Positions 6,359 to 26,965 of a DNA stretch of 64,000 bases are shown one piece after another. The DNA is from a virus (Duplodnaviria; Caudoviricetes), in the IMG/VR virus record IMGVR_UViG_3300017911_001818, positions 32,003 to 96,002 of that record, one strand, 5' to 3'. Below the pieces are notes generated by a model. That model had not been told where the DNA came from, did no database searches, and saw nothing but the letters and a program-made list of their open reading frames with translations. Each line of letters opens with the position of its first letter. The first letter of the stretch is position 1. The translations under genes and the position numbers were made by a program.

Positions 6359-7123
6359 ATGAAGAATGCTATATTTCAATATTATCTTAATTTTAATGGA
6401 GTTGGTAAGCAAGGCGCTCATTATCCAACAGAAGGTAAACCTGAATGGGTTGAGCGTTCTGTGCAATATTTTAAAGAATACGCTAAAAAGCATGGCGCAG
6501 AATATTTTTTCTTTGAAGATCGTTATGTTAATGCAACGTCAAATTTTTTTGAAATTTTAAGGCTGTATAAAGATCCTATCTTCGATAAATTTGATAATGT
6601 ATTGTATCTAGATGTTGATGTCATGCCAAAAAATATGGATGCTAATATTTTTGATATTCATTTTGGAGATGTAGCTGGATGGCCAGAATGGCGTGCGCCT
6701 GAAATCGCTGTTTCGATAAACTGGAATGCAAATCATCAGATAGCTAGTAGGTTTGCTGACTTTGGTGCACCTGTTGTGCCTTCGAAATCAGCTCCTACTA
6801 ATCTTCGCATGATAAACTCTGGGGTTATGCTTTGGAAAAAGCGAGCTAGAATAAAAGCCAGAGAATCGTTTGACGATCATGAAAAATGGTTTCATCATAA
6901 AAATGCGCTACTTGATTCAAAATGGACTAGCGCAGGACATAGTTCCCACTGTCTTGATCAGCCATTCCTTAATGCCATGTTTAATAAAAATAATTTTAAA
7001 GTAACTGAGCTGGGTATGGAATGGAATAGATTCCCAACAAAAAAAGAAAGTTTTCCTTGTAACTTTGCACATTATGTTGGGGATTACAGATACAATATTC
7101 CAAAGATGTTTGAGGAATTATAA
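6359..7123 (+). CDS. GT8-like glycosyltransferase
   Basis: LYLDVDV, INSGVML, DQPFLN, EWN, HY. Confidence 0.78.
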   Translation: MKNAIFQYYLNFNGVGKQGAHYPTEGKPEWVERSVQYFKEYAKKHGAEYFFFEDRYVNATSNFFEILRLYKDPIFDKFDNVLYLDVDVMPKNMDANIFDIHFGDVAGWPEWRAPEIAVSINWNANHQIASRFADFGAPVVPSKSAPTNLRMINSGVMLWKKRARIKARESFDDHEKWFHHKNALLDSKWTSAGHSSHCLDQPFLNAMFNKNNFKVTELGMEWNRFPTKKESFPCNFAHYVGDYRYNIPKMFEEL

Positions 7124-7863
7124 TGAAAGTTGCAGTTTGCGTCTCGGGCTTGCCAAGAAGCAGTATCAGGGAGGATGTTAGACCTAATATTGAACGGCTC
7201 GAAGAAAATTTCCCTGATGCCGATTTTTATTTTAGCACATGGTTAAGTCAAAAAGAGTATATTAGTAAATATTTTCCTGATAAAACAGTAGCATTTTTTC
7301 CTGAGCCAAAAGTTGATTATCATCCTTTCGTTGATGCAGATATTGACTTTCATGAAGTTACCCCCAAGCTTGAAAAGACTATTAATCAAGCGAAGCAAAA
7401 CAAAGTATTTCGAGAAACTTCTTCTCATCAAACGAAACAAATTTTAGCTCATGCATGTGCAGTTGATTATATTACATCTGATTATGATATTATAATTAGA
7501 GCACGTTGGGATACATGGACAGCTAAAAACGCCAAGAAACATTTTAATAATTTTGCTAAAATAGCCGCAGCGATGAATTGTGCAGTAGGCTTTGGCACTT
7601 TAAAAGAACACTGGAGTATGTTTAATCAACCCTTTAATATTTCTGATAACGAGGGGTATCATTATAATTTTCTTTTTGATCAATTAATTATTCATCCAAA
7701 GAAAATATTTAATACTGATAATGTATGGAAGCTACATAAAGAAAAACTACTTCTCGCTGCAGAGTTTGGCTGGTGGCAAGTTCTTTCTAAAAATAATAAT
7801 CATATTTCTATATCCGGATTAGCCAACCCAGATAGAAGTGTATCTCCAGAGTTTTTAATTTAA
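7123..7863 (+). CDS. putative glycosyltransferase-like protein, paralog of 3446..4147
   Basis: MKVAVCVSG..R, YDIIIRARWD, EFGWWQVLS. Confidence 0.55.
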   Translation: MKVAVCVSGLPRSSIREDVRPNIERLEENFPDADFYFSTWLSQKEYISKYFPDKTVAFFPEPKVDYHPFVDADIDFHEVTPKLEKTINQAKQNKVFRETSSHQTKQILAHACAVDYITSDYDIIIRARWDTWTAKNAKKHFNNFAKIAAAMNCAVGFGTLKEHWSMFNQPFNISDNEGYHYNFLFDQLIIHPKKIFNTDNVWKLHKEKLLLAAEFGWWQVLSKNNNHISISGLANPDRSVSPEFLI

Positions 7864-8558
7864 TGAAGACTTGCATTTTTCAATATTGGATTGGTGAAGA
7901 ACCTCAGTGGGTCAAAATCAGCAAGAGAAAGTTTAAAGAATATGCTGATGCTGTTGGCGCAGATTATATCTTTTCAAATCAACTAAAATACTGTGATAAC
8001 TCTTACTTCGAAAATCTAAGAGTATTACATGATCCATTATTTTCTAAGTACGATAGAGTATTATATGTTGATGTTGATGTAATACCAGAAAATTTTAACA
8101 ATATTTTTGATGAGGAAATTAGAGATATTGGATTAATTCCAGAATACAGGCCAAAGGGTATGAATGCTGATCCATTTTTTGGATTGACAAAAGTCGAAAT
8201 TCAATATAAACTAGCTGCATCATATTTTAAAGTTCCTGTTCACACCCCGAAGACAGTAAAAGCTTCATATTTAATGTTTAACAGTGGTGTTATTCTTTGG
8301 TCAAAAGAAGGAATACAAAAGGCTGCTAAACATTTTATGAACTGGGAAAGATGGCATTATAAACTTGAAGGTAACATGTCTTTAGATCAGCCATATATAA
8401 ATGGTCAGGTTCAGAAACATTTAGATTATACAGAGCTAGAATTAAAATGGAACTGCTATCCTAAATTTAGATTTTATGAAGGTAAAGAGCCTAAAGAAAT
8501 GAACTTCGTTCATTACACTGGCGGTAAGAAAAAATACATAGAGGAATATTATGAGTGA
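7863..8558 (+). CDS. GT8-like glycosyltransferase, paralog of 6359..7123
   Basis: LYVDVDV, FNSGVIL, DQPYIN, KWN, HYTGGKK. Confidence 0.8.
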   Translation: MKTCIFQYWIGEEPQWVKISKRKFKEYADAVGADYIFSNQLKYCDNSYFENLRVLHDPLFSKYDRVLYVDVDVIPENFNNIFDEEIRDIGLIPEYRPKGMNADPFFGLTKVEIQYKLAASYFKVPVHTPKTVKASYLMFNSGVILWSKEGIQKAAKHFMNWERWHYKLEGNMSLDQPYINGQVQKHLDYTELELKWNCYPKFRFYEGKEPKEMNFVHYTGGKKKYIEEYYE

Positions 8559-9132
8559 GTATACAAAAATTAATGTTGGTTGTGGTTGGGAAACTAGAGA
8601 TGGCTGGTTAAACGTTGACAATACACAAAAACATCAACGAGTTAATTATCCAATCACGTTTATGGATGCAACTACAACTTGGCCTCATGAAGATAATACA
8701 TTTGAGTACGTATTAAGCGAGCATATGATTGAGCATATTCCAGCTAAAAAGGGACTAGCATTTCTAAAAGAAGCATTTAGATGTTTACAAAGTGGAGGCG
8801 TGATTCGAGTCTCTTGCCCTGAGCGTGGCTTTTTTGAGTCTCTACCTGGGAATGACGATCATCCGTTCGTCGTAAATTATTCTAGAAAAATTTTTAACAG
8901 AGAGCCTTCTTTTGGCGTTTCCAAGCGCATTTCTGATAGGACTTTGTTTGAACAGGGGCATGTTTGGGTTCCAACAACACAGCAACTTATCGACCAAGTA
9001 GCCAAGGCAGGATTTGTTGATGTTAAAAGTGTTGAGTATGGTAAATCTGAACACGAGGCTTTTAATGGTATCGAAGTTAATGATGGTGTTCGTAATTGGG
9101 AGTCTGTGGTAGTTGAGGGAACTAAGCCATGA
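8551..9132 (+). CDS. class I SAM-dependent methyltransferase (type 11-like)
   Basis: NVGCG, W.NVD, EHMIEH, L..GG.IR..P. Confidence 0.85.
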   Translation: MSEYTKINVGCGWETRDGWLNVDNTQKHQRVNYPITFMDATTTWPHEDNTFEYVLSEHMIEHIPAKKGLAFLKEAFRCLQSGGVIRVSCPERGFFESLPGNDDHPFVVNYSRKIFNREPSFGVSKRISDRTLFEQGHVWVPTTQQLIDQVAKAGFVDVKSVEYGKSEHEAFNGIEVNDGVRNWESVVVEGTKP

Positions 9133-9770
9133 GTGAAATGAGAAAGCTTTTTGATAAATATAAATGTGACAAAGGTCACAAGCATGAATATGATATAGTT
9201 TATGAGCCTGATTTTGAAGCTCTAAAAGAACAACCAATTAATATCTTAGACATTGGCATATGGAAAGGTGCGTCAATGGAGGCTTGGTTGGATTACTTTC
9301 CAAACGCAACGGTTTATGGGATTGATATTTTTACAAGATTAAATCCAGAAGAAGTACCAGCTTTATCAAAAGATAGAACTAAATGGCTGCAGGGAGATAG
9401 CACGTCTCCTAAGATTGTAAAAGAAATTAAGAAAGCTTGGGGTAATGTTAAATTCGATATTATAATTGATGATGGTAAGCATACACCAGAGGCAAATCAG
9501 CTTACATTTAGGCATACCTTTCCTTTCTTAAAAGAAGACGGTAGATATTATGTTGAAGATGTTTTTCCGTTTGATATTATGACTCAGAAAGAACTTCAGG
9601 ATCCTTGGTTAAAAGCAAATCCTGATGAATACAATCTTTTTAAATACATGCAATTTTTAAATGAAATTTCTCCCTATAAAACTAAACATTTTGATGGTCG
9701 ATATAAACACAGATCACCAACACACGTCGGGGTGTACCTTGACAGCTATATTATTAGAGTGAATCGATGA
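9129..9770 (+). CDS. sugar O-methyltransferase (MycE/TylE-like class I)
   Basis: DKGHKHEY, LDIGI..GAS, GIDI, DIIIDDGKH, YYVED. Confidence 0.8.
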   Translation: MSEMRKLFDKYKCDKGHKHEYDIVYEPDFEALKEQPINILDIGIWKGASMEAWLDYFPNATVYGIDIFTRLNPEEVPALSKDRTKWLQGDSTSPKIVKEIKKAWGNVKFDIIIDDGKHTPEANQLTFRHTFPFLKEDGRYYVEDVFPFDIMTQKELQDPWLKANPDEYNLFKYMQFLNEISPYKTKHFDGRYKHRSPTHVGVYLDSYIIRVNR

Positions 9771-11753: not shown

Positions 11754-12354
11754 AGTTGCTCATGTTATTGGTAATGGTCATGCATCCAATCTTTACACTC
11801 CTCAAAAAGGAATGAAGATTTGTTGTAACTTACCTCCTTTTGAAATTCCGAATATTGCTCTATCTTGTATGGTAGATTTTAAGATGATGAAAGCTCTTTA
11901 TGAAGGATCATTAGAAAACCCATATACTTGGGTGTTAGGTATGCGTCCAAAGATGTATATGGAGAAATATAGCGACTTTAGATTAAAGCATATGGCACAA
12001 GTAAAAGAGTTTTATACTACTTTGCCTAAATATGCAGGTAATGGCGGGCAAGGTTATACTAATTTTAATTGTGGGCACTTTGCTTTACACTATACATGTA
12101 ATAAAATTCAGCCAGAGGAAGTGCATATCTGGGGGTTTGATTCATTAATGGACTTTGATATTCGTTCAAGAACAGATTTTTATCTTAACTCTGATAGAGG
12201 CGGAATGAATACACAACGACTGTCGCAGACATGGCGATCAATTACGCATGGCATTTTTAACGAGTTTAACAATATTCAGTTTATAGTCCATCATAAGCAC
12301 AGCAATATGAAAGTTGAGAGGCCAGATAACGTAGAGGTTATGGTGCATAAATGA
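11746..12354 (+). CDS. Maf/sialyltransferase-like (GT29/GT42-fold) putative ulosonic acid transferase
   Basis: HVIGNG.S near the N-terminus, then G..A and VHIWGFD, a pattern typical of CMP-sugar transferases. Start is taken at ATG 11746. Confidence 0.55.
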   Translation: MPRVAHVIGNGHASNLYTPQKGMKICCNLPPFEIPNIALSCMVDFKMMKALYEGSLENPYTWVLGMRPKMYMEKYSDFRLKHMAQVKEFYTTLPKYAGNGGQGYTNFNCGHFALHYTCNKIQPEEVHIWGFDSLMDFDIRSRTDFYLNSDRGGMNTQRLSQTWRSITHGIFNEFNNIQFIVHHKHSNMKVERPDNVEVMVHK

Positions 12355-13991
12355 AAATCTTAATTTTATATCCTAACATCCCAATGATGTTTACTCCAGC
12401 ATTGAGCGTTGGGATATTTAATACTATTTGTAAACAAGAGGGCGCTGAAGTTAGTGTGTTTGAAACAACATACTATTCAGAGCAGTTCTCCAACAGGCAT
12501 GTCAGTTTGACTAGCACTGGTGCAAATAATGGCGGTAATGTAGAGGACTACATGGATATTAAAGATCCGAAGGATATGATTCCGGATCTGAAAGAAAAAG
12601 TTGACACATTTAAACCTGACTTAATTTTAATGTCCCTCGCCGAAGATACGTATCATCAAGGTATTGAATTATTAGAAGCAATTAAAGACAGAAATATTCC
12701 GAATATTGTTGGGGGTGTTTTCGCTAGAGATGCAAAACAAGTATTACTGAAGCATGATGTTATTGATCAAATTTGTCATCATGAAGGTGAATATGTAGTT
12801 CGTGATGCCATTCGTGCATTTAAAAACAATGAGTCTTTTGAAAATATTAAAGGCACGACATACAGGTATGCGGATCATGCGCATACTAATGAAGAACAGC
12901 CACTCTGTAATATTTCTGAGTATGCTCCAGATTATGATCTTTTTGAAGATTTTCGCTGGGCCAGACCTATGGGCGGCAGAATCTTTAAACGTGTAGTCGC
13001 ACTCGAAACATATAGAGGTTGCCCATATAATTGTACTTATTGTAACTCGCCCTCTCAAAGAGCGTTTTCGAAAGAAAATAATCAAGGCAACTTCATGCGT
13101 AGAAAAACTGCAGATGTTGTCGAAAAAGAATTAGTTTCCATCTTGGAAAATCATAATCCGGAAATGATTATGATTATTGACGATTCTTTCTTGGCTAGAC
13201 CAAAGAAAGAGATCGAGTCTTTTTCAAACATGTGGTCGAAGTATAAAATTCCTTTTTGGATGAATACACGTGTCGAGAACTGCAGCCCTGAAGTTTTAGA
13301 TATGATGAAGCACGCTGGCTGTTATCGTATGTCATTTGGCCTTGAGTCTGGCAATGAACAATATCGTAGAGATATACTTTCCAGAAATGTTAAACAAGAG
13401 GTATATCTTGAACATTTTGAATATATTAATGAGTCTAATATTCCATATGCATTGAATATTATCATTGGTATGCCATACGAAACTCCAGAAATGATTGAAG
13501 ACTCTGCGAAGTTATCCCGTGAAGCAAGAGGATATGACGCTCTAACTATTTCTAAATTTATTCCATATCATGGCACAGGGCTAAGAACTATGGCAGTAAA
13601 TGCTGGATTCCTAGATCCCAACTTTATTTCTGGTGGCGGTGGACTTCTCGGAGACTATGCTTTGAATATGCCTGAACCATATGTATCTCCAAAACAGGTT
13701 GATGACTACATTAAAATTTTCTCGCTATTAGCTTACTACCCAGACAGTATGTGGGATGAGGTGAAGGCATCTTTGCATGATGAAGAATTATATAAGAAAC
13801 TTGTTGATGATTATAAATCTTCATATTATACTGAATTTCAACAAGGCGGAAAAGATAGAATTAAAAGGCTTGACAAAAAGATTAAAGAAAAGTATAATGA
13901 ACCTTCTGGTATTAAAGCATGGTCAAAAGGCTGTGCTAAACACGATGAAAGTTCTTCATTTAGATTTGAGATTATGGCAGCGGCATCATGA
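12351..13991 (+). CDS. cobalamin-binding (class B) radical SAM enzyme, putative methyltransferase
   Basis: N-terminal B12-binding region (KPDLI, VGGVFA, EGE), RGCPYNCTYC, IDD.F, GLESG, IIGMP.ET. Confidence 0.9.
   Translation: MKILILYPNIPMMFTPALSVGIFNTICKQEGAEVSVFETTYYSEQFSNRHVSLTSTGANNGGNVEDYMDIKDPKDMIPDLKEKVDTFKPDLILMSLAEDTYHQGIELLEAIKDRNIPNIVGGVFARDAKQVLLKHDVIDQICHHEGEYVVRDAIRAFKNNESFENIKGTTYRYADHAHTNEEQPLCNISEYAPDYDLFEDFRWARPMGGRIFKRVVALETYRGCPYNCTYCNSPSQRAFSKENNQGNFMRRKTADVVEKELVSILENHNPEMIMIIDDSFLARPKKEIESFSNMWSKYKIPFWMNTRVENCSPEVLDMMKHAGCYRMSFGLESGNEQYRRDILSRNVKQEVYLEHFEYINESNIPYALNIIIGMPYETPEMIEDSAKLSREARGYDALTISKFIPYHGTGLRTMAVNAGFLDPNFISGGGGLLGDYALNMPEPYVSPKQVDDYIKIFSLLAYYPDSMWDEVKASLHDEELYKKLVDDYKSSYYTEFQQGGKDRIKRLDKKIKEKYNEPSGIKAWSKGCAKHDESSSFRFEIMAAAS
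13870..13898 (+). promoter_or_regulatory. perfect sigma70-type promoter inside the radical SAM gene
   Basis: TTGACA (13870-75), 17 bp spacer, TATAAT (13893-98); about 90 bp upstream of the kdsB-like start. Confidence 0.7.
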
Positions 13992-18829: not shown

Positions 18830-19345
18830 ATGCGATATATTTTTATTCTGTTTCTTTTTATCGGGTCTGCATCTGTATCTCAGGCGCAGACCTATCTTAA
18901 TTGTAATGAGATAACTGTTGAAGCACGTGATTATACACACGTGTCAAAGAATCTTCCTACTCGCAATAATAATCCAGGAAACATTCGAAGAACATCGGTG
19001 AAATACTTTGGAGAGACGAATGCTGATGCAACGTATGAATCTTTTTCTTCTCCAATCTGGGGATATGCCGCTATGTTTGACCTTCTGTATCGTCTGTATT
19101 CTGGACTCACTCTGAAGGAAGCTATCTACAAGTGGGCTCCGCCAACCGAGAATGATTCTGAGCGTTATGTGAGGTTTGTCTCTAGTGAGGTTGGAGTTGA
19201 TGCAGACGAGTATATCATTGATGTTGATAATCCTTCCATTATGACAGTGGCTAAATATATGTCGGTGCTCGAAGGGATGAAAGGATTTTCTGATTCCGAT
19301 ATTGAGCTTGGTTATATGCTTTGGGATACTTGTTATTATGGTTAA
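18830..19345 (+). CDS. lysozyme-fold (NNPGNIR family) protein with an N-terminal signal peptide; putative endolysin or virion muramidase
   Basis: RNNNPGNIR, F.SP..G..A, TL..AI.KWAPPTEND..Y; hydrophobic signal ending SQA; ACTAAATA late-like promoter at 18817-24. Confidence 0.7.
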   Translation: MRYIFILFLFIGSASVSQAQTYLNCNEITVEARDYTHVSKNLPTRNNNPGNIRRTSVKYFGETNADATYESFSSPIWGYAAMFDLLYRLYSGLTLKEAIYKWAPPTENDSERYVRFVSSEVGVDADEYIIDVDNPSIMTVAKYMSVLEGMKGFSDSDIELGYMLWDTCYYG

Positions 19346-20039
19346 AATTTATGTTGGCTGTGCGCCAAAAGGTTTAGACGCTGAAGCGCAGATGGTTCTC
19401 GACTACAGTATTAAAAAATTTACATCAATTGATTATGAAATTATCTGGCTGAAAGATTCTAAACATAAAGGCTCAAAGCTGTATGGCTGGGATATGAATT
19501 ATTGGGATACTCCATTCTGTGGTTTTAAATGGGCAGTTCCGGAGCTTTCAAAATTTAAAGGGGAATCTATCTATCTACAATATAATCATATCGTACTTGA
19601 AGATATTGCACAGTTGGTAGATCAAAAAATAGAAAAAGATGCAGTAATGATTACGCCGAAAACTAATCCATTTTCTGCAATTAAATTTAATAACAAAGCA
19701 ATAAAAGAATATTTGCCTTCGATTGAAGACATGAAGAATTCTTCAGCAGCTCATCAAATATGCACTAAATACTTTTTTGATAATGGAAACTTAATTTCTT
19801 ATTTTGATAGCGACTGGGAAATTGAAATTTTTGATCTTGGCGAAAAATCCGGACTGCCATATAATAATCTGAGGCAAGTATATCTTGATAAGTATACATA
19901 TCCTCGCCTTAGAAAAGTGGGTGTCGACCATTGGTTTAATACTGAATGTTCTAACACGAAATGTATAATTCCAGGAGTTTTCGATCAATATTATGAAGAA
20001 GCTCTAAACGAGGGATATTCGATTGAGAATTATACTTAA
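19338..20039 (+). CDS. GT-A glycosyltransferase-like protein with a degenerate DxD motif
   Basis: KIYVG...VL.YSI, W.TPF..FKWA.PE...F.G..IY; the expected D.D position reads LQYNH. Confidence 0.55.
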   Translation: MVKIYVGCAPKGLDAEAQMVLDYSIKKFTSIDYEIIWLKDSKHKGSKLYGWDMNYWDTPFCGFKWAVPELSKFKGESIYLQYNHIVLEDIAQLVDQKIEKDAVMITPKTNPFSAIKFNNKAIKEYLPSIEDMKNSSAAHQICTKYFFDNGNLISYFDSDWEIEIFDLGEKSGLPYNNLRQVYLDKYTYPRLRKVGVDHWFNTECSNTKCIIPGVFDQYYEEALNEGYSIENYT

Positions 20040-20048
20040 AGGTGTCAA

Positions 20049-20789
20049 ATGTCTTTAACTCGAACATTTTTACCAGCCAGTGGCGCTCTTTCTTTGGGCG
20101 CTGCTGCAGGATCAGGAAGAAGTATCACGGAAAGGTTTGGTGGTTCTACAGCGCATAGTATGTCTGAGTATTATGGTATTGGTGTAAATACAGCGAATGC
20201 AACGTTGCCAGCAAGCGGTCCTTTAAGGTTTAGCGATTTTTATAATCGAACAGAAAACATAACCACTAGCAGAACGACTCAGATTCCGGGTCCGGGTCAA
20301 CCATTCGTTCCAGCTTCTCCGGCAGAGCCAGCACAATTTGTTCCTGCTCAGTCAGGTTCCCCCAGCGTATTTCAACCAGGAAGTCCAGGTCAACCAAACA
20401 ATCCTTCTCAGCCGTCAGAGCCAGCACAACCCTCTGAGTTCGGCCAACCGTTTAGACCGGGACAACCATTTAATTTTGGGCAGCCGACTATTCCGGGAAG
20501 CTTTAATCCTTTCTTTGGTGTATTTCAACCAACAGTATTTGGACAATTTCCTAGTCCTGGTCAGCCAAGCTCAGGACAACCGTTTGTTGCGGGGCAACCG
20601 TTTGTTCCGGGGCAACCCTTTGAGTTTGGTCAACCATTTTTCCCATCAAATTTTCAACCAGGAGTTCCTAGTCAACCGGGAGGCCAGACTCAGCCATTCG
20701 AACCAGCAGTGCCAGAAAAGCCGGCACAACCCGGAACTATAAATCAAGTTACAGAATTTTTAACGAGAGTCGCTCCTGAACCTTCATAG
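20049..20789 (+). CDS. putative fibre-tip/adhesin-like virion protein with Pro-Gly-Gln-Phe repeat tract
   Basis: N-terminal LPASGALSL..SI..FGG...HSMSEYY...PASGPLRFSDFY is an attachment-type domain common in phage tip proteins; residues 79-231 are about 25% Pro. Confidence 0.7.
   Translation: MSLTRTFLPASGALSLGAAAGSGRSITERFGGSTAHSMSEYYGIGVNTANATLPASGPLRFSDFYNRTENITTSRTTQIPGPGQPFVPASPAEPAQFVPAQSGSPSVFQPGSPGQPNNPSQPSEPAQPSEFGQPFRPGQPFNFGQPTIPGSFNPFFGVFQPTVFGQFPSPGQPSSGQPFVAGQPFVPGQPFEFGQPFFPSNFQPGVPSQPGGQTQPFEPAVPEKPAQPGTINQVTEFLTRVAPEPS
20283..20741 (+). repeat. coding low-complexity repeat: (P/F)GQPFx and xxP triplets
   Basis: 10 GQP units; 39 Pro in 153 residues (manual count). Confidence 0.9.
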
Positions 20790-20798
20790 GATTTTATA

Positions 20799-21755
20799 AT
20801 GCTGCCATTACATAATTACAAAGATACTACTCTTGGTATCACGAATGAAAAAAGAATTGGTTCTGCAAACCAACTGACATATACTCCTAAAAAACTGACT
20901 AGATTAAATATTATTGAAAAGATTTTTCAGGAAAAATGTCATCTTCCAGTTCAGTTTGACCTTATGCCTTGTGAAGATTGGTATTACCCAAAGTATTTGA
21001 CGTATACGAATGTAAACAAGTATATGTTCTTGACGACTAATTCATTTGAGTTTAATACTAGATTCTTCATGCATCAGCTTACAGCAATTGACTGGAAGTT
21101 TATGGACACAAACATTGAACAAATTTTTGAAGAAGGAGAAATTTCCGACAAGTATAAGCTCGTTTCATATGAGGGCGATGAACTTGATACTGTATTTTTC
21201 TTGCCAGGAACTAACATCGATTATCTAATCGACTATACTAAGATCGATGAGATTATGCAGAGTAATTCAAATGTTCTGCTGAAGCCACATCCTTTGACTA
21301 GCAAAAAGCATCTTGCAATTTTAGCTAATATGTATGGATGGGAAAATATTATTGAAAAAGAAATTTCAGGTCATGACATTCTTAAGAAAACTAAAAATGT
21401 TTTTTATACAGATAATTCTGAGATTGGAATGAAAGCTTATCAAATGGGTAAGGACCCTAAACATTTTAATATTTTAAATCTAAGTCAGCCAATGATCTAT
21501 CATTCTTTTTATCATATTCTTAGAGCTAATCAATCAGATGTTAAGTCACTAATCTCTGCATTCTTCTCTACTCCTAAATTCGGGATGTTTGATCTAAACG
21601 ATCCGATCGACACTCTTAATAATAATGTTGCATCGTTTCTTGCAGACCTAGAGCATTTTAGACAGCGACTAAAACCAGTCTCTACAACATTTGATAGAAC
21701 CGCATTTAATAATTTTTTAGATATGAGAAGAAAAGAAAAGAATGCTTCCGTTTAA
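20799..21755 (+). CDS. GT-B transferase resembling KpsS/KpsC capsule (Kdo) transferases
   Basis: LLKPHP followed by V...NSEIGMKA..MGK, i.e. an HP motif plus an S..G.EA..GK-like pattern. Confidence 0.55.
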   Translation: MLPLHNYKDTTLGITNEKRIGSANQLTYTPKKLTRLNIIEKIFQEKCHLPVQFDLMPCEDWYYPKYLTYTNVNKYMFLTTNSFEFNTRFFMHQLTAIDWKFMDTNIEQIFEEGEISDKYKLVSYEGDELDTVFFLPGTNIDYLIDYTKIDEIMQSNSNVLLKPHPLTSKKHLAILANMYGWENIIEKEISGHDILKKTKNVFYTDNSEIGMKAYQMGKDPKHFNILNLSQPMIYHSFYHILRANQSDVKSLISAFFSTPKFGMFDLNDPIDTLNNNVASFLADLEHFRQRLKPVSTTFDRTAFNNFLDMRRKEKNASV

Positions 21756-22296
21756 AGTATTTAAAAATTTTATAGATGATGATTTTGTAAGTAAGTATCT
21801 TTCTAATGATGGATATGTAGAGGCATCAGTTACAGACAAAACAGGAACTAATTCCGAGAAAAATGATAAAACTCGGAGAAGTCGAGTAAGATTTTATAAT
21901 AATGATCAGATACCACTTTTTGATAAATTGGTTGATTCCTATTCAAAATATTTTGATGAAGGCGAGATAGATTATTTTGATTATCAGCTAACAAGGTATG
22001 ACGCTGAGGATTCTGGCTTCTTTCATATGCATGATGATACTGTAAGATCAAACACACCTCATATTCGAAGAATATCCTGTAGTATTTTTATGTCTGATCC
22101 TGAGCATTATGATGGCGGAGATTTTATTTTTAGAGACTATGATCTACAATCTGTTCGAGGCTGGAACGATAAGTACAGTTGCGTGATGTTTCCCTCAACA
22201 GGATTGTATCATGCTGTCTTGCCAGTAACTAGAGGGACACGTTACTCTTTAGTATGTTGGGGTATGGGAAAAAATCCAGATTATAAGGCTGATTGA
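21742..22296 (+). CDS. prolyl 4-hydroxylase-like 2OG-Fe(II) oxygenase
   Basis: Q.TRY, HDD, RRIS, Y.GG.F, FPS..YH.V.PVT.G.RYSLV.W. Confidence 0.88.
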   Translation: MLPFKVFKNFIDDDFVSKYLSNDGYVEASVTDKTGTNSEKNDKTRRSRVRFYNNDQIPLFDKLVDSYSKYFDEGEIDYFDYQLTRYDAEDSGFFHMHDDTVRSNTPHIRRISCSIFMSDPEHYDGGDFIFRDYDLQSVRGWNDKYSCVMFPSTGLYHAVLPVTRGTRYSLVCWGMGKNPDYKAD

Positions 22297-22856
22297 TGTT
22301 TAAAAAAATTGATCCTAACTTTCCAGTTCATAGCTTTAAAAACTTTTTTAGTATGACTGACGATCAAAGAGATAAGGCGGTAATGACTTGCCTTCGACAT
22401 CACCATAAGCACATTAAGAGGTTAAGTAAACTGTCAGTAGGGTATAACTATGTTGTACCGAAAGCTGGAGTTCTCGAAGAAATACCTAAAAAAGTAAATG
22501 AGGCTCTTGATGCTGCGTTCGGCGGCAAGCTTACTAATGATAGCATTTATGCATATTCTTCTAACAGTAAAACAAGTTTTGATCTTTGGCACGATCACGC
22601 ACATGTGCACACTACCGTGACAACAGTTTATTATCTACAGCTACCAAATCATAATGAGAGTGGTATTCAGTTTGAGATAGATGATAATATTTTGGATTAT
22701 AAGCCAGAACAAGACGAGCTCGTTATATTTCCAGGATGGCTAAATCATAGGCCATACAAATCTGGCGTTAGTGAAGAGTGGAGAGTTTCTTTAAATATGG
22801 ATCGAATTTATGACATGCCTGATAGAATTTTTACTAGAATGGGAAAAGAACTATGA
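22296..22856 (+). CDS. 2OG-Fe(II) oxygenase (HxH type)
   Basis: WHDH, VYYLQ.P, LVIFPGWLNH, R.SL. Confidence 0.82.
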   Translation: MFKKIDPNFPVHSFKNFFSMTDDQRDKAVMTCLRHHHKHIKRLSKLSVGYNYVVPKAGVLEEIPKKVNEALDAAFGGKLTNDSIYAYSSNSKTSFDLWHDHAHVHTTVTTVYYLQLPNHNESGIQFEIDDNILDYKPEQDELVIFPGWLNHRPYKSGVSEEWRVSLNMDRIYDMPDRIFTRMGKEL

Positions 22857-23437
22857 GTAATATCCAATGTGATTCTTTATTCCCCCAAAAGGTTTGGCGT
22901 ACTGACTTGGATTTAAATTGTTCTAGGCTAAAGCAGTATGTTTTAGGTCTAGAAAAGAAAGATCAAACAGGTAATAACAGAAGTAATGTAAATGGCTGGC
23001 AGAGCAGATCTTTAGATCCTAGACAAGTCGATAATGAAGATGTAAGTAAAATGCTAGAAGCTGTAATCCATAAAGTAAACACTTGTGGAAGCACTAATAA
23101 TATGCCTGAATTAAAAATTAGTAACTATTGGTTTAATATTAATAGAAAGGGTAGTATGAATGCATCTCATACACACCCTGGATCAGTTTTAAGCGGAGCA
23201 TTCTACATCAACAGTAACGAGAAAGACGGAGAAATTATTTTTGAAAGAGGAGATAATGCCCAATGTTACTTACCTGATGGTTTAAACAACGGTAATTTTT
23301 ATACCTCTGTAACATATGTATATCCTCCTAAAATAAATCGCCTATATATCTTTGGCTCTTGGCTTTCACATTGGGTAAAACCAAATACAACTAACTCTGA
23401 TAGAATAAGTTTGAGTTTTAATACACATGTTGCATGA
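22853..23437 (+). CDS. TIGR02466-like 2OG-Fe(II) oxygenase
   Basis: SN.NGWQS, WFNIN, HTHP.S.LSG.FY, IF.SWL.H.V, RISLSFN. Confidence 0.88.
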   Translation: MSNIQCDSLFPQKVWRTDLDLNCSRLKQYVLGLEKKDQTGNNRSNVNGWQSRSLDPRQVDNEDVSKMLEAVIHKVNTCGSTNNMPELKISNYWFNINRKGSMNASHTHPGSVLSGAFYINSNEKDGEIIFERGDNAQCYLPDGLNNGNFYTSVTYVYPPKINRLYIFGSWLSHWVKPNTTNSDRISLSFNTHVA

Positions 23438-24080
23438 TGTCTTACAAAGAATTAAGGAATTTCCAGAAGAACCTTTTATCAGTAGGGTTTGTACACCAGA
23501 GCAAGCTGAAAAACTTTTTAATTGGAATGATGTATCAGAATTAATTAGAACGAATGAAAATAAATTTGAATTAATTAATCAAGATAATAAAAAAATTTCT
23601 GTTAAAGAAATAAATCAGCCATGGCATGGAACTGTACAAGATAAATCTACAATCTATGAAAACATTTTAGATGGACTTGGGTTTGTAATTATTAATCAAA
23701 GTTATTACAACAAAAGTATGAATAGACTCTCTGCAGATATAGAGAGCTCGCTAAAAAAAGCTACCGATATTCATGTATATGGAGCATATGATGGCTCTGG
23801 GAAATCTTTTACAGCCCACAGCGATCCAACATCAAATATTATTGTTCAGTTAGATGGCACATCTCTTTGGAGGATTTACGCAGAAAAACTTGATCAAGTT
23901 CCTAGAGATAAAACTCATTTGCTTACAGAAGTAATTAATCAAAAGCTTTATCCAGGAATGGTTGCGTATATTCCAAATAGAACTTACCATAAGTGCGAGC
24001 CTTTATCTAAAAGATTATCGCTTAGTTTTGCGATTCATTCTAACATACATCCACACACAAGAGAAGAGTATATTTTATGA
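23427..24080 (+). CDS. JmjC/cupin-4 protein hydroxylase-like
   Basis: SF.AHSD, IVQL.G...W, PG...YIP...YH, RLSLS. Confidence 0.8.
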   Translation: MLHDVLQRIKEFPEEPFISRVCTPEQAEKLFNWNDVSELIRTNENKFELINQDNKKISVKEINQPWHGTVQDKSTIYENILDGLGFVIINQSYYNKSMNRLSADIESSLKKATDIHVYGAYDGSGKSFTAHSDPTSNIIVQLDGTSLWRIYAEKLDQVPRDKTHLLTEVINQKLYPGMVAYIPNRTYHKCEPLSKRLSLSFAIHSNIHPHTREEYIL

Positions 24081-25249
24081 CTAAATTTTACAACGATGAC
24101 ATAAAGCTTGATTTTTCTGATGTGTTGATTGTTCCGGGAAGAAATTCAACAGAGCTTTTGGCAGAGAAAAAATTTTATAATAAAAATATGCTATCTAGGA
24201 ATGATGTAAATTTAATTAATAGTTTTCGCTCAGATCCTTCTATACGATTAGTCGACAGTGAAGTTGATAATGACACTACAATTAACATTGTTGCATTACC
24301 AATTATTGCTTCAAATATGGATGGAGTTGGTACAGTAGAAATGCACGATCAGCTACGTAAAAATAAGATGATGACTTCTTTGGTTAAATCTACTACTGAT
24401 GAAGAATTAGATGCGATACAAGAACCAGAATTAGCATTTTTAACCATTGGCATTAATGAATCTGATTTAGATAGAGTTGAACAACATAAACATAAATTTA
24501 AAAATATTTGTATTGATACTCCAAACGGATATTTGGCAAATATTCCGCATTTCGTAAGTAGAGTAAGAGCGATTTGTGGAGAAAAAACTTTTATTATGGT
24601 AGGTAACATTGTAACTGCAGAGCATGCTTTAAATTTATACATGGCAGGAGCTGATTGTGTTAAAGTTGGCATCGGTTCAGGTAGTGTATGCACAACCAGA
24701 ATTAAAACTGGAGTTGGATACCCACAGCTATCCGCTATCTTAGAAGTGTCTAAACAAGCACATCAGATTAATCTTACCATGAGACGTAAGTTATTTGTTT
24801 GTTCTGATGGCGGTTGTACAGACCCAGGAGATATCGCTAAAGCTTTCGTAGCTGGTGCTGATTTTGTTATGCTCGGTGGCATGTTAGCTGGACATGATGA
24901 AGGTGGAGGTGAAATCGTTAAAAAGTATGTAGAGAGCGATGAGCGGATGATGCATCCACAAGGCTCTAGATTCGTTCCAGTTATAGATGAAAAGAAATAT
25001 GTTCAATTTTATGGTATGAGTTCTAAAACTGCCAATGATAAACATAATGGTGGTCTAAAAGGATATCGTGCCGCAGAGGGTAAAGAAGTTTTAATCCCAT
25101 ATAAAGGACCAGTTCAGGATACTATTGATGACATCTTAGGAGGACTTCGATCAGCTTGCACGTATATTAATTCTCCAAATTTGAGAAAAATGTCAGTTTT
25201 TGGAAAATTTGTTAAAGTTAATAATCAGGTAAATAATGTTTTTAAATGA
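24077..25249 (+). CDS. guaC: GMP reductase
   Basis: LDFSDVL, NMDGVGT, CID..NGY, KVGIGSGSVCTTR, DGGC..PGD, FYGMSS, YRAAEGK, LGGLRSACTY. Confidence 0.95.
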   Translation: MTKFYNDDIKLDFSDVLIVPGRNSTELLAEKKFYNKNMLSRNDVNLINSFRSDPSIRLVDSEVDNDTTINIVALPIIASNMDGVGTVEMHDQLRKNKMMTSLVKSTTDEELDAIQEPELAFLTIGINESDLDRVEQHKHKFKNICIDTPNGYLANIPHFVSRVRAICGEKTFIMVGNIVTAEHALNLYMAGADCVKVGIGSGSVCTTRIKTGVGYPQLSAILEVSKQAHQINLTMRRKLFVCSDGGCTDPGDIAKAFVAGADFVMLGGMLAGHDEGGGEIVKKYVESDERMMHPQGSRFVPVIDEKKYVQFYGMSSKTANDKHNGGLKGYRAAEGKEVLIPYKGPVQDTIDDILGGLRSACTYINSPNLRKMSVFGKFVKVNNQVNNVFK

Positions 25250-25914
25250 ACACATTAGTTACAACTTATTATGAAGATCCTGATTATCTTGAAAAATATA
25301 TAGAATACAATTTTCAAGAGGATGTGTTCAGTCACTTAATTATCGTTGATGATGCATCCTCTAAATTTCCCGCAAAAAAAGTCTTGACAAAGTTTAAAAA
25401 TGAGAATATAAGTTTATATGAGATTAAAGAAGATATCGGATTTAATTCTCATGCGGCTAGGAATCTTGCCGCAACTCAATGTAAAACTGAATGGGCTACG
25501 TTTTTAGATGTTGATCATGTATTGACTTCTGAAACTTTTGACGATATAATAAGGTTTGTTGAACTTGAGGAAAATGAATGGCTTTGGTTTGGTGACAATC
25601 AGTTCATGATTCCTAGTAAATATTTCCTCGCTGCTGGTGGTTATGATGAAAGGTTAAATGGATATCGCTGGGGAACATTTTTAATGCAAGATCGCCTTGA
25701 TAAATTGTTCTCTAGAGAAATGTTAAACCCATGGAATAGCACTTTGCTTACTAGAACGTTAAAAGGATTACCTGGAATAACTCGACAATCTAGAGAACAA
25801 ATGCGAAAGAACAAAGCTAAAGAAGCTGAGATTAAACTTAACTCCTCTGCCAATCCTTTGGACTGGCATAAACATAAAATGTTAACTTTTGAATGGAATA
25901 AAATATGTCTCTGA
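25246..25914 (+). CDS. glycosyltransferase family 2/7-like
   Basis: IIVDDAS, ARNL, FLDVD, GGYDE. Confidence 0.8.
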   Translation: MNTLVTTYYEDPDYLEKYIEYNFQEDVFSHLIIVDDASSKFPAKKVLTKFKNENISLYEIKEDIGFNSHAARNLAATQCKTEWATFLDVDHVLTSETFDDIIRFVELEENEWLWFGDNQFMIPSKYFLAAGGYDERLNGYRWGTFLMQDRLDKLFSREMLNPWNSTLLTRTLKGLPGITRQSREQMRKNKAKEAEIKLNSSANPLDWHKHKMLTFEWNKICL

Positions 25915-26096
25915 ACAAACGTACCGTAGGTAAAAAGCAAAACAAGCAGTTTGCAGCTAGTAAGCGTCTAGATTCTCTCGCTGCTTATGATGAAGAGTAT
26001 GCACACTCTCATGACATTAAAGATATCGTAAGCGGTCTAGATGGATATTCTGAATATCTCTCTGATCGAAATGGATCTGGTAGCGACTGGTATTAA
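25905..26096 (+). CDS. hypothetical protein (63 aa)
   Basis: Overlaps both neighbours, with TAATG coupling downstream. Confidence 0.55.
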   Translation: MSLNKRTVGKKQNKQFAASKRLDSLAAYDEEYAHSHDIKDIVSGLDGYSEYLSDRNGSGSDWY

Positions 26097-26965
26097 TGGA
26101 TCATTTTAATTTAATTAAAATTATTGAAATTAATCCAACAGAGCTCTGTAATTTGCAGTGCTCTTTCTGCCCAAGAGCGCATGGATATCCTAATCAAAAC
26201 TTGCATATGTCGATTGATACCGCAAAAGAGATTATAAAGCAAATAGAAAATTGCAATTTTAAGGGAGATGTAGTATTCGCAGGAAGAGGAGAACCTACTT
26301 TAACTAAAAATTTTGATAAAATTGTACAGCTGTTTCTTGAATGTGCAAATATTAAACAAGTCCGTATCACAACGAATGGCAAGAGATTACATTTACTTGA
26401 GAAATTTTTAGAACCATATGGGAATAAGTTTAGAGTAAAATATGATGTTTATACTACAGACGAAAAACAGCAAAGATTAGCCTTAATAAAATATAAAAAT
26501 TATAAGAACGTGTCTGTTGACATTAAAACAGATTTCGGATTAAACTATAATGAATACCCTACTGGTAAAACTTCTGAAAAAAATCCCAATGTCAAATCTA
26601 AATATGGAACAGGCAATATTGAGGGTATGACTAATCGTGCTGGGTTTCTCGGAGAAAGCTTCTACGATTTTACTGACAAAAGCTGTAGAAAATTAACTCA
26701 TAATATGTATATTAACTGGAATGGTGATTATAATCTTTGTTGTGATGATTGGACTCCCTTAGTTTTAGGTAACATATATGAAGAGAGTATATCAGATTTT
26801 GCAAATCATAATGAGGCCATAGCTCATTACAGAAAAAAACTGGTCTGCGAAAACAGTCGAGAGGGATTACCTGCTTGCCAAACTTGTAATAGAAATGCTC
26901 CTCTGAATGCAGAGGTCAGAGTAGATGTTGAAAATTTAATAAAACTGGATGAGTTGATTCCATGA
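26096..26965 (+). CDS. radical SAM protein with SPASM/twitch domain
   Basis: CNLQCSFC, GRGEPTL, TTNG, LCCDDW, C..C. Confidence 0.9.
   Translation: MDHFNLIKIIEINPTELCNLQCSFCPRAHGYPNQNLHMSIDTAKEIIKQIENCNFKGDVVFAGRGEPTLTKNFDKIVQLFLECANIKQVRITTNGKRLHLLEKFLEPYGNKFRVKYDVYTTDEKQQRLALIKYKNYKNVSVDIKTDFGLNYNEYPTGKTSEKNPNVKSKYGTGNIEGMTNRAGFLGESFYDFTDKSCRKLTHNMYINWNGDYNLCCDDWTPLVLGNIYEESISDFANHNEAIAHYRKKLVCENSREGLPACQTCNRNAPLNAEVRVDVENLIKLDELIP

What the first reader, a model, noticed from the sequence alone, without database searches (positions are those of the whole stretch)
20283..20741. The Pro-rich tract is mirror-symmetric about an NPFF turn: a predicted long antiparallel polyproline-II needle
Seen (manual indexing): the tract spans residues 79-231 (153 aa), and its midpoint (residue 155) falls in SFNPFFGVF (NPFF at nt 20505-20516), a break in the xxP rhythm that looks like a beta-turn. 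Two other register breaks, VFQPG and NFQPG, have their Phe residues equidistant from the centre (residues 108 and 202). The tract is flanked by strand-like TTSRTTQ and NQVTEFLTR. Inference: the arms pair into an extended hairpin that presents an aromatic tip as the receptor probe. This is a designed fold, not random low-complexity sequence.
Basis: partly seen in the sequence, partly recalled or inferred. Interest (0 to 1): 0.78.

Follow-up and report, generated by a model that had tools for sequence, protein, structure and literature searches.

The report
Length-matched two-arm proline-rich phage protein
A small protein of an uncultured marine T4-like phage has a proline-rich middle whose two halves always change length together around a phenylalanine-rich centre, which suggests it folds back on itself into a stalk of adjustable length rather than being a random floppy linker.

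Summary
ORF 20049-20789 (246 aa) has a P/Q/G/F tract at residues 79-231, with NPFF at its midpoint and F108/F202 equidistant from it.

Within this one sequence the mirror symmetry is not beyond chance (shuffle p about 0.2). The comparison with relatives decides it. In 16 full-length orthologues the aromatic centre (FxxFF) sits mid-tract every time. Arm pairs run from 39/44 to 86/88 residues (independent-contrast r = 0.99).

Inner and outer sub-segments each change in matched pairs. A further strain, seen in three studies, replaces two mirror-positioned blocks, each longer by exactly 24 nt.

The N-terminal module and the C-terminal TEFLTRVAPEP are near-invariant. The C-terminal motif is kept through synonymous changes.

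So a fold-back or antiparallel two-arm architecture is supported. A polyproline-II conformation is not established: the xxP rhythm is specific to one clade, and AlphaFold confidence is very low (pLDDT 36-42).

The "receptor probe" role is inference. It rests on the N-terminal module, which in other phages heads glycine-rich proteins encoded directly after Peptidase_S74 tail-fibre genes. Here the gene instead lies in a glycosyltransferase/2OG-oxygenase island.

There is one counter-example: an unmatched 18-bp repeat loss in a partial contig.

The parts
20049..20789 (+). Whole gene, 246 aa plus stop. Layout: N-terminal module, two-arm P/Q/G/F tract, C-terminal motif.
   Evidence: ORF. There are 16 full-length orthologues with conserved ends. 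Synonymous changes at the conserved C-terminus show protein-level selection. The overlapping +2-frame ORF 20338-20742 is a by-product of the repeats.
20049..20282 (+). N-terminal module, residues 1-78. It carries two SG-x-(I/L)-S-type motifs around an invariant GG..H.MSEYY core and ends in the strand-like ITTSRTTQ.
   Evidence: Near-invariant in orthologues. phmmer over 1.8 billion representatives finds residues about 8-70 at the N-terminus of many proteins of 80-530 aa with unrelated C-terminal parts. There is no Pfam, NCBIfam or PDB match. AF2 strand E72-80 has low confidence.
20283..20498 (+). Left arm, residues 79-150.
   Evidence: Its length co-varies with the right arm across orthologues.
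20315..20425 (+). Left hypervariable block, residues about 90-126.
   Evidence: In contigs from three independent studies (runs X4, X5, X12), 111 nt are replaced by 135 nt, a gain of 24 nt. Its mirror image about residue 155 is residues 184-220.
20367..20381 (+). Left 'rung' VFQPG, containing F108.
   Evidence: The xFQPx motif lies at -46, -52 and -46 from the centre in the window protein, L050 and L051. It is matched by the right rung at +48, +55 and +48.
20499..20549 (+). Aromatic centre and putative turn, residues 151-167 (SFNPFFGVFQPTVFGQF).
   Evidence: This is the best-conserved part of the tract (F155, F164 and F166 invariant or nearly so). It lies at mid-tract in every orthologue. It is kept at high identity in the variant strain whose arms are replaced.
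20550..20741 (+). Right arm, residues 168-231.
   Evidence: Its length co-varies with the left arm.
20577..20622 (+). 18-bp tandem repeat, 2.6 copies, encoding GQPFV(A/P) hexads.
   Evidence: Tandem Repeats Finder. Repeat slippage of this kind is the likely source of the 3- and 6-residue indels.
20594..20693 (+). Right hypervariable block, residues about 183-215.
   Evidence: In the same contigs, 100 nt are replaced by 124 nt, again a gain of 24 nt.
20649..20663 (+). Right 'rung' NFQPG, containing F202.
   Evidence: see the left rung.
20742..20786 (+). C-terminal motif, residues 232-246 (NQVTEFLTRVAPEPS). The putative return strand that closes the base.
   Evidence: TEFLTRVAPEP is invariant in 15 of 16 orthologues (L054 has TEWLTRVLPEP) despite synonymous changes in most codons. 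AF2 strands E231-239 (window protein) and E159-169 (P0008) have low confidence.
19353..20039 (+). Upstream neighbour, a GT8-like glycosyltransferase. Context only; not shown to act on the protein.
   Evidence: ESM Atlas score 0.98 to viral clusters in which 21-27% of members carry PF01501. Same position in L085/L086.
20799..21755 (+). Downstream neighbour of unknown function (phrog_26179). Context only.
   Evidence: weak Capsule_synth lead.
21742..24080 (+). Three 2OG-Fe(II) oxygenases and a JmjC-type hydroxylase. Context only; possible modifying enzymes.
   Evidence: PF13640, PF13759 and PF08007 hits. The same order is found in L085/L086.

Best explanation
The gene encodes a three-part protein: a conserved N-terminal module, two low-complexity P/Q/G/F arms of equal length, and an invariant C-terminal strand. 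The chain most likely runs out along one arm, turns at the Phe-rich centre (FNPFFG...), and returns along the other arm in antiparallel register. The C-terminal TEFLTRVAPEP segment then packs back against the ITTSxxT strand at the end of the N-terminal module.

The result would be a fold-back stalk. Its length is set by paired insertions and deletions of 3- or 6-residue units, giving arms of 39-88 residues, or roughly 12-27 nm if fully extended. Its far end would display a conserved aromatic patch.

Shown: the architecture, the length coupling, and conservation of the ends and centre. Inferred: intramolecular pairing; an extended PPII-like backbone in the long-tract clade, because Pro at every third residue is incompatible with a regular beta-ladder; and attachment to the virion through the N-terminal module, with the aromatic apex as the distal, host-contacting end.
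For: (1) Arm lengths, measured from TE.ITT[SN] to the centre motif and from the centre motif to TE[FW]LTR, are 86/88, 83/84, 77/78, 76/76, 53/55, 48/49, 47/49, 44/46 and 39/44. Raw r = 0.997. Independent contrasts give r = 0.992 with n = 14, and no permutation of 20,000 reached that value.

(2) A second register mark, xFQPx, stays mirror-placed at -46/+48, -52/+55 and -46/+48. The outer segments are 34/33, 37/36 and 40/39. So inner and outer sub-segments each change in matched pairs, and the pattern is mirrored, not direct.

(3) P0005 and P0013 differ by +6/+6 in the outer thirds of both arms.

(4) Contigs from three other studies carry a strain with the left block (111 nt replaced by 135) and the right block (100 nt replaced by 124) replaced at mirror positions. 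Each gains 24 nt, and the centre is conserved.

(5) The ends and centre are conserved while the arms are hypervariable. The C-terminal motif is conserved through synonymous changes.

(6) Two AF2 models place their only or main strands symmetrically: 72-80 with 231-239 in one, and 68-78 with 159-169 plus 101-112 with 127-137 in the other. Sums are constant within each model, but pLDDT is only 36-42.

(7) Mirror identity is positive at the centre in nearly all orthologues. In the window protein, five Pro-Pro pairs (82/228 to 94/216) are in mirror register.

(8) In other phages the N-terminal module sits at the N-terminus of proteins encoded directly after Peptidase_S74 tail-fibre genes: 30 of 47 de-duplicated clusters. 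Cultured examples are phiM9 gp135 and RHph_N34 gp011, the latter annotated 'putative tail fiber adhesin'.
Against: Neither AF2 model is confident (mean pLDDT 42 and 36), so a disordered tract is not excluded.

L053 is a partial contig otherwise identical in DNA to L051. It lacks one perfect 18-bp repeat unit in the left inner arm, while the right inner arm is unchanged. This is either an unmatched 6-residue indel or an assembly collapse, and the contig ends inside the gene.

Single-sequence mirror identity is not significant against shuffles.

The xxP rhythm is weak or absent in short orthologues. Glycine, at 12-20%, is far below that of known PPII bundles.

The number of truly independent length changes is modest, roughly 8-10. 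Whole tracts can move by recombination: L051's N-module groups with the short clade while its tract resembles the long clade.

In this phage the gene is not beside a fibre gene, and the 96-kb record (54% complete) has no Peptidase_S74 gene.

No experiment shows that any protein with this N-terminal module is in a virion. The phiM9 paper only hypothesises a tail fibre (PMC4621102).
Confidence: 0.5

Rival explanations
1. The arms pair between chains rather than within one chain. In an antiparallel homodimer, or a higher oligomer, the left arm of one chain would lie against the right arm of another, and each N-module would bind the other chain's C-terminal motif.
For: All the length-coupling data fit this equally well. 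Fibre proteins are usually oligomers.
Against: Nothing favours it over an intramolecular hairpin. A conserved turn-prone centre rich in N, P and G (FNPFFG, FNNFFNPG) is more naturally a chain reversal.
Confidence: 0.15
2. The tract is an intrinsically disordered, elastomer-like or heavily modified spacer. It could be a hydroxyproline- or sugar-bearing acceptor made for the surrounding island of glycosyltransferases, 2OG oxygenases and radical-SAM enzymes. On this view the central motif and the two ends are the only functional sites.
For: pLDDT is very low. 2P+G is 0.64 in the window tract and 0.44-0.58 in others, near the range I recall for elastomeric proteins (from memory, not checked). The gene lies between a GT8-like gene and phrog_26179. 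It is followed by three 2OG-Fe(II) oxygenases (one PF13640, the prolyl-hydroxylase-type family), a JmjC protein, a GT2 and a radical SAM-SPASM enzyme. Upstream are more GT8s, a UDP-glucose dehydrogenase, methyltransferases and radical-SAM genes. The order is conserved in L050, L085 and L086. The tract has 11 X-Pro-Gly sites. A viral prolyl 4-hydroxylase acting on Pro-rich repeats is known from PBCV-1 (Eriksson et al. 1999, cited in PMC7019647).
Against: A floppy spacer gives no reason for the centre to stay exactly mid-tract, or for mirror-placed blocks to gain the same length. The shared synteny comes from closely related phages, so it is not independent evidence of a functional link. Modification and a fold-back stalk are also not mutually exclusive.
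Confidence: 0.2
3. The symmetry is coincidental. The tract is ordinary low-complexity sequence drifting by repeat slippage from a symmetric ancestor.
For: The single-sequence test is not significant. Indels come in units of 3 or 6 residues, which makes chance matches easier. One unmatched variant exists.
Against: Arms range from 39 to 88 residues, yet they differ by at most 2 wherever the FxxFF centre is present. All 9 contrasts of 2 or more residues have the same sign and nearly the same size. Sub-segment and mirror-block matching adds to this.
Confidence: 0.07
4. It is a collagen-like or glycine-rich PPII/PGII bundle domain of the kind seen in phage fibres, such as the S16 gp38 adhesin.
For: It has a period-3 rhythm. 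Most other proteins sharing the N-terminal module have C-terminal parts with 25-38% Gly. Like gp38, those genes follow a fibre gene. PPII bundles are antiparallel.
Against: Gly occupies fewer than half of the triplets (6 of 13 in the most regular stretch) and 13% of the tract overall. There is no Pfam Collagen hit. No sequence match to any solved structure, gp38 included, was found.
Confidence: 0.05

Closest known systems
T4 gp37 long-tail-fibre tip ('needle', domains D10/D11)
   Same: The chain runs out to the receptor-binding tip and comes back, so both chain ends lie at the proximal collar: D10 is residues 811-881 plus 1010-1026 (PMC6957217). It is a thin, elongated distal element of a T4-type phage.
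   Different: The gp37 needle is a trimeric six-stranded beta structure held together by seven Fe ions on His motifs. The tract here has no His at all, is Pro-rich, and shows no sequence similarity. Its oligomeric state is unknown.
Streptococcal antigen I/II stalk (A-region alpha-helix paired with P-region PPII helix)
   Same: A fold-back stalk in which a Pro-rich PPII arm pairs with the other arm and presents a domain at the apex (PMC6586375). Both arms are built of repeats and must match in length.
   Different: One AgI/II arm is an Ala-rich alpha-helix. Here both arms are P/Q/G/F-rich and no helix is predicted. The apex is a 17-residue aromatic motif, not a folded V domain. It is a bacterial cell-wall adhesin, not a phage protein.
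Glycine-rich PPII/PGII helix bundles (snow-flea antifreeze protein, phage S16 gp38 adhesin)
   Same: Antiparallel packing of extended three-residue-per-turn helices. gp38 sits at a fibre tip and tolerates hypervariable segments (bioRxiv 10.1101/2023.11.25.568672). The wider family sharing the N-terminal module is mostly 25-38% Gly.
   Different: Known bundles use short helices with very high Gly content. This tract has 12-20% Gly, bulky Phe and Gln, and arms of 39-88 residues. No sequence homology was found.
phiM9 gp135 / Rhizobium phage RHph_N34 gp011 ('putative tail fiber adhesin')
   Same: They share the N-terminal module (HMM E about 1e-15).
   Different: Those genes lie directly after a Peptidase_S74 fibre gene and have Gly-rich C-terminal parts. 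The window gene lies in an enzyme island and has the two-arm Pro-rich tract plus the C-terminal TEFLTRVAPEP motif. Their function is only hypothesised.

Membership tests
Collagen triple helix | Gly at every third residue over long runs | tested here: not met
   20 Gly in 153 residues. In the most regular stretch (110-150), Gly occupies 6 of 13 triplets. No PF01391 hit at E <= 0.1.
Glycine-rich PPII/PGII bundle (snow-flea AFP, S16 gp38) | High glycine content in the packed helices | tested here: not met
   Gly is 12-20% in all orthologues.
Glycine-rich PPII/PGII bundle (snow-flea AFP, S16 gp38) | Antiparallel arrangement of successive PPII helices | tested here: inconclusive
   Mirror length coupling implies antiparallel arms, but the backbone conformation is unknown (pLDDT 36-42).
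Glycine-rich PPII/PGII bundle (snow-flea AFP, S16 gp38) | Sequence or profile similarity to gp38 or other solved members | tested here: not met
   The PDB profile and sequence searches found only noise or compositional collagen hits.
T4 gp37-type needle | His motifs coordinating Fe along the needle axis | tested here: not met
   No His in the tract. The feature is taken from PMC6957217.
T4 gp37-type needle | Chain folds back so that N- and C-terminal parts meet at the base | tested here: inconclusive
   Supported indirectly by matched arms and by low-confidence AF2 strand pairs. No structure is available.
T4 gp37-type needle | Homotrimer | not testable with these tools
   The three-copy complex job gave no answer. 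This counts neither for nor against.
Antigen I/II-type stalk | Ala-rich alpha-helical arm pairing with the Pro-rich arm | tested here: not met
   Only 8 Ala in the tract, and no helix is predicted in it.
Uncharacterised 'SG-x-IS ... GG..H.MSEYY ... SG-x-I-x-F' N-terminal module family (relatives in phrog_30374 / phrog_10745) | The module at the extreme N-terminus | tested here: met
   Residues 8-70 match the N-termini of 40+ representative proteins. Alignment A3 has invariant SG, GG, H, MSEYY and G columns.
Uncharacterised 'SG-x-IS ... GG..H.MSEYY ... SG-x-I-x-F' N-terminal module family (relatives in phrog_30374 / phrog_10745) | Gene immediately downstream of a Peptidase_S74 tail-fibre gene (true of 30 of 47 clusters) | tested here: not met
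   The upstream gene is GT8-like. There is no PF13884, phrog_21722 or phrog_11011 hit in the 96-kb record, which is only 54% complete.
Prolyl-hydroxylase substrate (collagen-type X-Pro-Gly) | X-Pro-Gly sites and a cognate P4H | not testable with these tools
   11 Pro-Gly sites and a PF13640 oxygenase two genes downstream. No modification data exist.

The most novel reading that the evidence does not exclude
The tract forms a new kind of fibre element: a two-stranded, proline-rich PPII hairpin 12-27 nm long. It would be zipped by alternating Gly/Phe and Gln contacts rather than by glycine packing. Evolution would tune its length by paired mirror-image indels, possibly as a reach-adjustable host probe on abundant marine myophages. 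It may also be hydroxylated or glycosylated by the enzyme island in which it is embedded.
Probability: 0.2. Interest if true: 0.85.

Novelty: new variant of a known kind. Interest (0 to 1): 0.62.

Why it matters
Low-complexity, proline-rich tracts are routinely dismissed as disordered linkers. Here a simple comparative signature, mirror-matched indels about a conserved centre, shows that such a tract is under a geometric constraint, even though structure prediction gives nothing usable. If the fold-back stalk is real, it adds a new building principle to phage fibre and adhesin architecture: a Pro-rich pair of arms whose length is adjusted in matched steps. The family occurs in uncultured marine T4-like phages related to those infecting OM43 and SAR11 hosts. 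The same test could be applied to other hypervariable repeat proteins. The link to an uncharacterised, widespread N-terminal module next to S74 tail-fibre genes also flags a large unannotated class of probable fibre accessories.

Tried and rejected
- The complex prediction with three copies of the window protein returned 'no answer' (score 0.00). It counts neither for nor against oligomerisation.
- megablast and tblastn of the region and the protein against 50,697 phage records found nothing, as did tblastn of P0042.
- Pfam and NCBIfam gave no hit for the protein. The only PHROG hit (phrog_31248, E = 1e-4) lies on the low-complexity part and was ignored.
- The PDB profile search with the N-module found only noise, E = 0.66. 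Gly-rich relatives hit only collagen, by composition.
- A second protein search restricted to residues 1-83 added no orthologue.
- A degenerate DNA pattern for the C-terminal motif found nothing in IMG/VR.
- No paralogue of the N-module exists in the phage's own record.
- A motif search of the literature found nothing relevant.
- An earlier-findings look-up returned nothing.
- A DNA-level palindrome was considered as the cause of the protein symmetry. It was rejected on sequence grounds: the reverse complement of GQPF-type codons would not encode GQPF-type residues. No inverted-repeat scan was run.
- Direct duplication of one arm, with gene conversion keeping lengths equal, was rejected. The rung motif lies 34-40 residues into the left arm but 46-53 residues into the right arm, so the layout is mirrored, not direct.
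- In one search a third joint (20782 to 20964), with 33-nt sides on other contigs, was set aside as probably a different organism.

Full report
**What is there**

The finding lies inside ORF 20049-20789 (+), which encodes 246 aa.
- The tract is residues 79-231.
- NPFF is residues 153-156, at nt 20505-20516.
- F108 (in VFQPG) and F202 (in NFQPG) are both 47 residues from residue 155.
- The flanks are TTSRTTQ (72-78) and NQVTEFLTR (232-240).

The tract holds 39 P, 22 Q, 21 F, 20 G and 14 S in 153 residues. It has no H, C, W, Y, L, M or D. Pro recurs every third residue locally: 23 of 38 gaps, and 12 of 13 triplets in residues 110-150. Register breaks interrupt the rhythm. GQPFxx hexads are common, and one 18-bp tandem repeat is detectable in the DNA.

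The window comes from a 96-kb viral record that is 54% complete. It is a marine T4-like myophage. Its baseplate protein is at most 37% identical to those of Melnitz (an OM43 phage) and the pelagimyophages Mosig and HTVC008M.

**Is the symmetry more than chance?**

In the single sequence, barely. The best mirror fold point of the whole tract is exactly residue 155, with 19 of 78 mirrored pairs identical (z = 2.9). However, 21-26% of shuffles reach as high a maximum somewhere. The evidence comes from relatives.

A search of 5.8 billion proteins and a metagenome scan gave 16 full-length orthologues of 174-265 aa. Residues 1-83 and the C-terminal TEFLTRVAPEP are nearly invariant in all of them. 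The middle is hypervariable in sequence and length.

Arms were measured from the end of the N-terminal module to the FxxFF motif, and from that motif to TEFLTR:

| Sequence(s) | Left / right arm (residues) |
|---|---|
| L050 | 86 / 88 |
| L051 | 83 / 84 |
| window protein | 77 / 78 |
| P0002, P0003 | 76 / 76 |
| P0013 | 53 / 55 |
| P0006 | 48 / 49 |
| P0005 | 47 / 49 |
| P0007, P0012, L054 | 44 / 46 |
| P0004, P0008-P0011 (centre reads GQFNN and is less sharply defined) | 39 / 44 |

Phylogenetically independent contrasts give r = 0.992 (n = 14). None of 20,000 permutations reached that value. All nine contrasts of 2 or more residues have the same sign and nearly the same size.

**Finer register marks**

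| Sequence | Rungs relative to centre | Outer segments, left / right |
|---|---|---|
| window protein | -46 / +48 | 34 / 33 |
| L050 | -52 / +55 | 37 / 36 |
| L051 | -46 / +48 | 40 / 39 |

So inner and outer sub-segments each change length in matched pairs. The layout is mirrored, not direct. That rules out arm duplication with gene conversion as the cause.

P0005 and P0013 differ by +6/+6 in the outer parts of both arms.

Contigs from public runs in three further studies add an independent case. They carry a strain in which window nt 20315-20425 (111 nt) is replaced by 135 nt, and nt 20594-20693 (100 nt) by 124 nt. Each block gains exactly 24 nt. The blocks cover residues about 90-126 and about 183-215, which are mirror images about residue 155. 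The centre between them is conserved.

**Other support**

- The C-terminal motif is kept through synonymous changes in most codons. Selection therefore acts on the peptide, not on a downstream DNA signal.
- The aromatic centre is the best-conserved part of the tract.
- Two AlphaFold2 runs gave very low confidence (mean pLDDT 42 and 36). Both place their strands symmetrically. The window protein has 72-80 with 231-239. P0008 has 68-78 with 159-169, plus 101-112 with 127-137. Sums are constant within each model (about 311 and about 237-239), which is what a single long hairpin gives. I treat this as consistent, not as evidence of a fold.

**Evidence against**

- L053 is a partial contig from the same sample series as L051, and otherwise identical to it in DNA. 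It lacks one perfect 18-bp unit in the left inner arm, with the right inner arm unchanged. This is either a real unmatched slippage variant or a collapsed repeat. The contig ends inside the gene.
- The xxP rhythm is clade-specific, with only 2 of 13 gaps in P0008.
- Glycine content (12-20%) is far below that of known PPII bundles.
- Whole tracts can be exchanged. L051's N-module groups with the short clade while its tract resembles the long clade. This reduces the count of independent events.

**What the protein may do**

phmmer over 1.8 billion representatives shows that residues 8-70 form a widespread N-terminal module. It heads proteins of 80-530 aa with unrelated C-terminal parts. It has no Pfam, NCBIfam or PDB match.

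Among 47 de-duplicated clusters outside the orthologue group, 30 have a tail-fibre gene ending in a Peptidase_S74 intramolecular-chaperone domain immediately upstream, often overlapping. Most of these relatives are 25-38% glycine after the module.

Cultured examples are phiM9 gp135 and RHph_N34 gp011, the latter annotated 'putative tail fiber adhesin'. Both follow an S74 fibre gene. The phiM9 authors only hypothesise a fibre role (PMC4621102). The module is therefore probably a virion- or fibre-docking element. That would put the aromatic apex at the distal end. This step is inference.

In this phage the context is different. The gene sits between a GT8-like gene and a gene of unknown function (phrog_26179). 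Downstream come three 2OG-Fe(II) oxygenases, a JmjC protein, an IMPDH-like enzyme, a GT2 and a radical SAM-SPASM enzyme. Upstream lie about 16 kb of further GT8, UDP-glucose dehydrogenase, methyltransferase and radical-SAM genes. The order is conserved in related phages.

The protein could therefore be hydroxylated or glycosylated, and it has 11 X-Pro-Gly sites. That would be compatible with, not opposed to, a fold-back stalk. The conserved synteny comes from close relatives, so it is weak evidence.

**Comparison with known systems**

- **T4 gp37 needle.** It shares the out-and-back topology, but it depends on His-Fe sites that are absent here.
- **Streptococcal antigen I/II stalk.** It pairs a PPII arm with an alpha-helix. 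Here both arms are Pro-rich.
- **Glycine-rich PPII/PGII bundles, including the S16 gp38 adhesin.** They share antiparallel three-residue-per-turn helices, but they need much more glycine.
- **Collagen.** It is excluded because Gly does not occur every third residue.

None of these families' defining features is met, so this is not a member of any of them. It may work like the first two.

**Verdict**

- The PPII conformation and the receptor-probe role remain unproven.
- It is an uncharacterised family with an unusual, testable architecture.

Noticed in passing
window 476-26965: About 26 kb of back-to-back + strand genes form an enzyme island. It holds two radical SAM-SPASM genes (476-1432, 26096-26965), a B12-binding radical SAM (12351-13991) and a UDP-glucose/GDP-mannose dehydrogenase (1429-2226). 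It also holds GT8s (6359-7123, 7863-8558, and probably 19353-20039), a methyltransferase (9129-9770), three 2OG oxygenases, a JmjC protein, an IMPDH/GMP-reductase-like gene (24077-25249) and a GT2 (25246-25914). The Pro-rich protein is one of the few non-enzymes in it.
   Followed up: partly
window 18830-19345: A 171-aa protein with a signal-peptide-like N-terminus. It also has a lysozyme/transglycosylase-like domain that matches the internal domains of large 'endolysin' and tape-measure PHROGs (phrog_873, phrog_2276).
   Followed up: no
window 47041-49887 and 49901-52171: Two adjacent ORFs match consecutive parts of one 2056-position PHROG of unknown function (phrog_358). The first covers profile positions 10-494 and the second 1179-1612. 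This may be a split or modular large baseplate-region protein.
   Followed up: no
L001-L083 (e.g. L020:5070-6624, L025:2958-6606, L005:4092-6045): There is a large unannotated family with the N-terminal motif SG-x-IS...EFGG..PHSMSEYY...SG-x-I-x-x-FYG. Its genes lie directly after, and often overlap by 16 nt, tail-fibre genes with a Peptidase_S74 C-terminal chaperone domain. Most members are 25-38% Gly downstream of the module.
   Followed up: partly
L009:2195-3274 and L009:3300-4331: Two tandem paralogues of the N-module family lie side by side on one viral contig.
   Followed up: no
L051 (Ga0070754_10011371) 1214-1993: This orthologue is a mosaic. Its N-module and its C-terminal '...PGA' ending group with the short-tract clade, while its tract resembles the long-tract clade of the window protein. 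This suggests the whole two-arm tract is exchanged as a unit.
   Followed up: partly
window 20338-20742 (+2 frame): A 134-aa ORF is open in another frame across the repeats. It is a by-product of the low-complexity sequence and not a gene, since conservation and synonymous changes follow the 20049 frame.
   Followed up: yes
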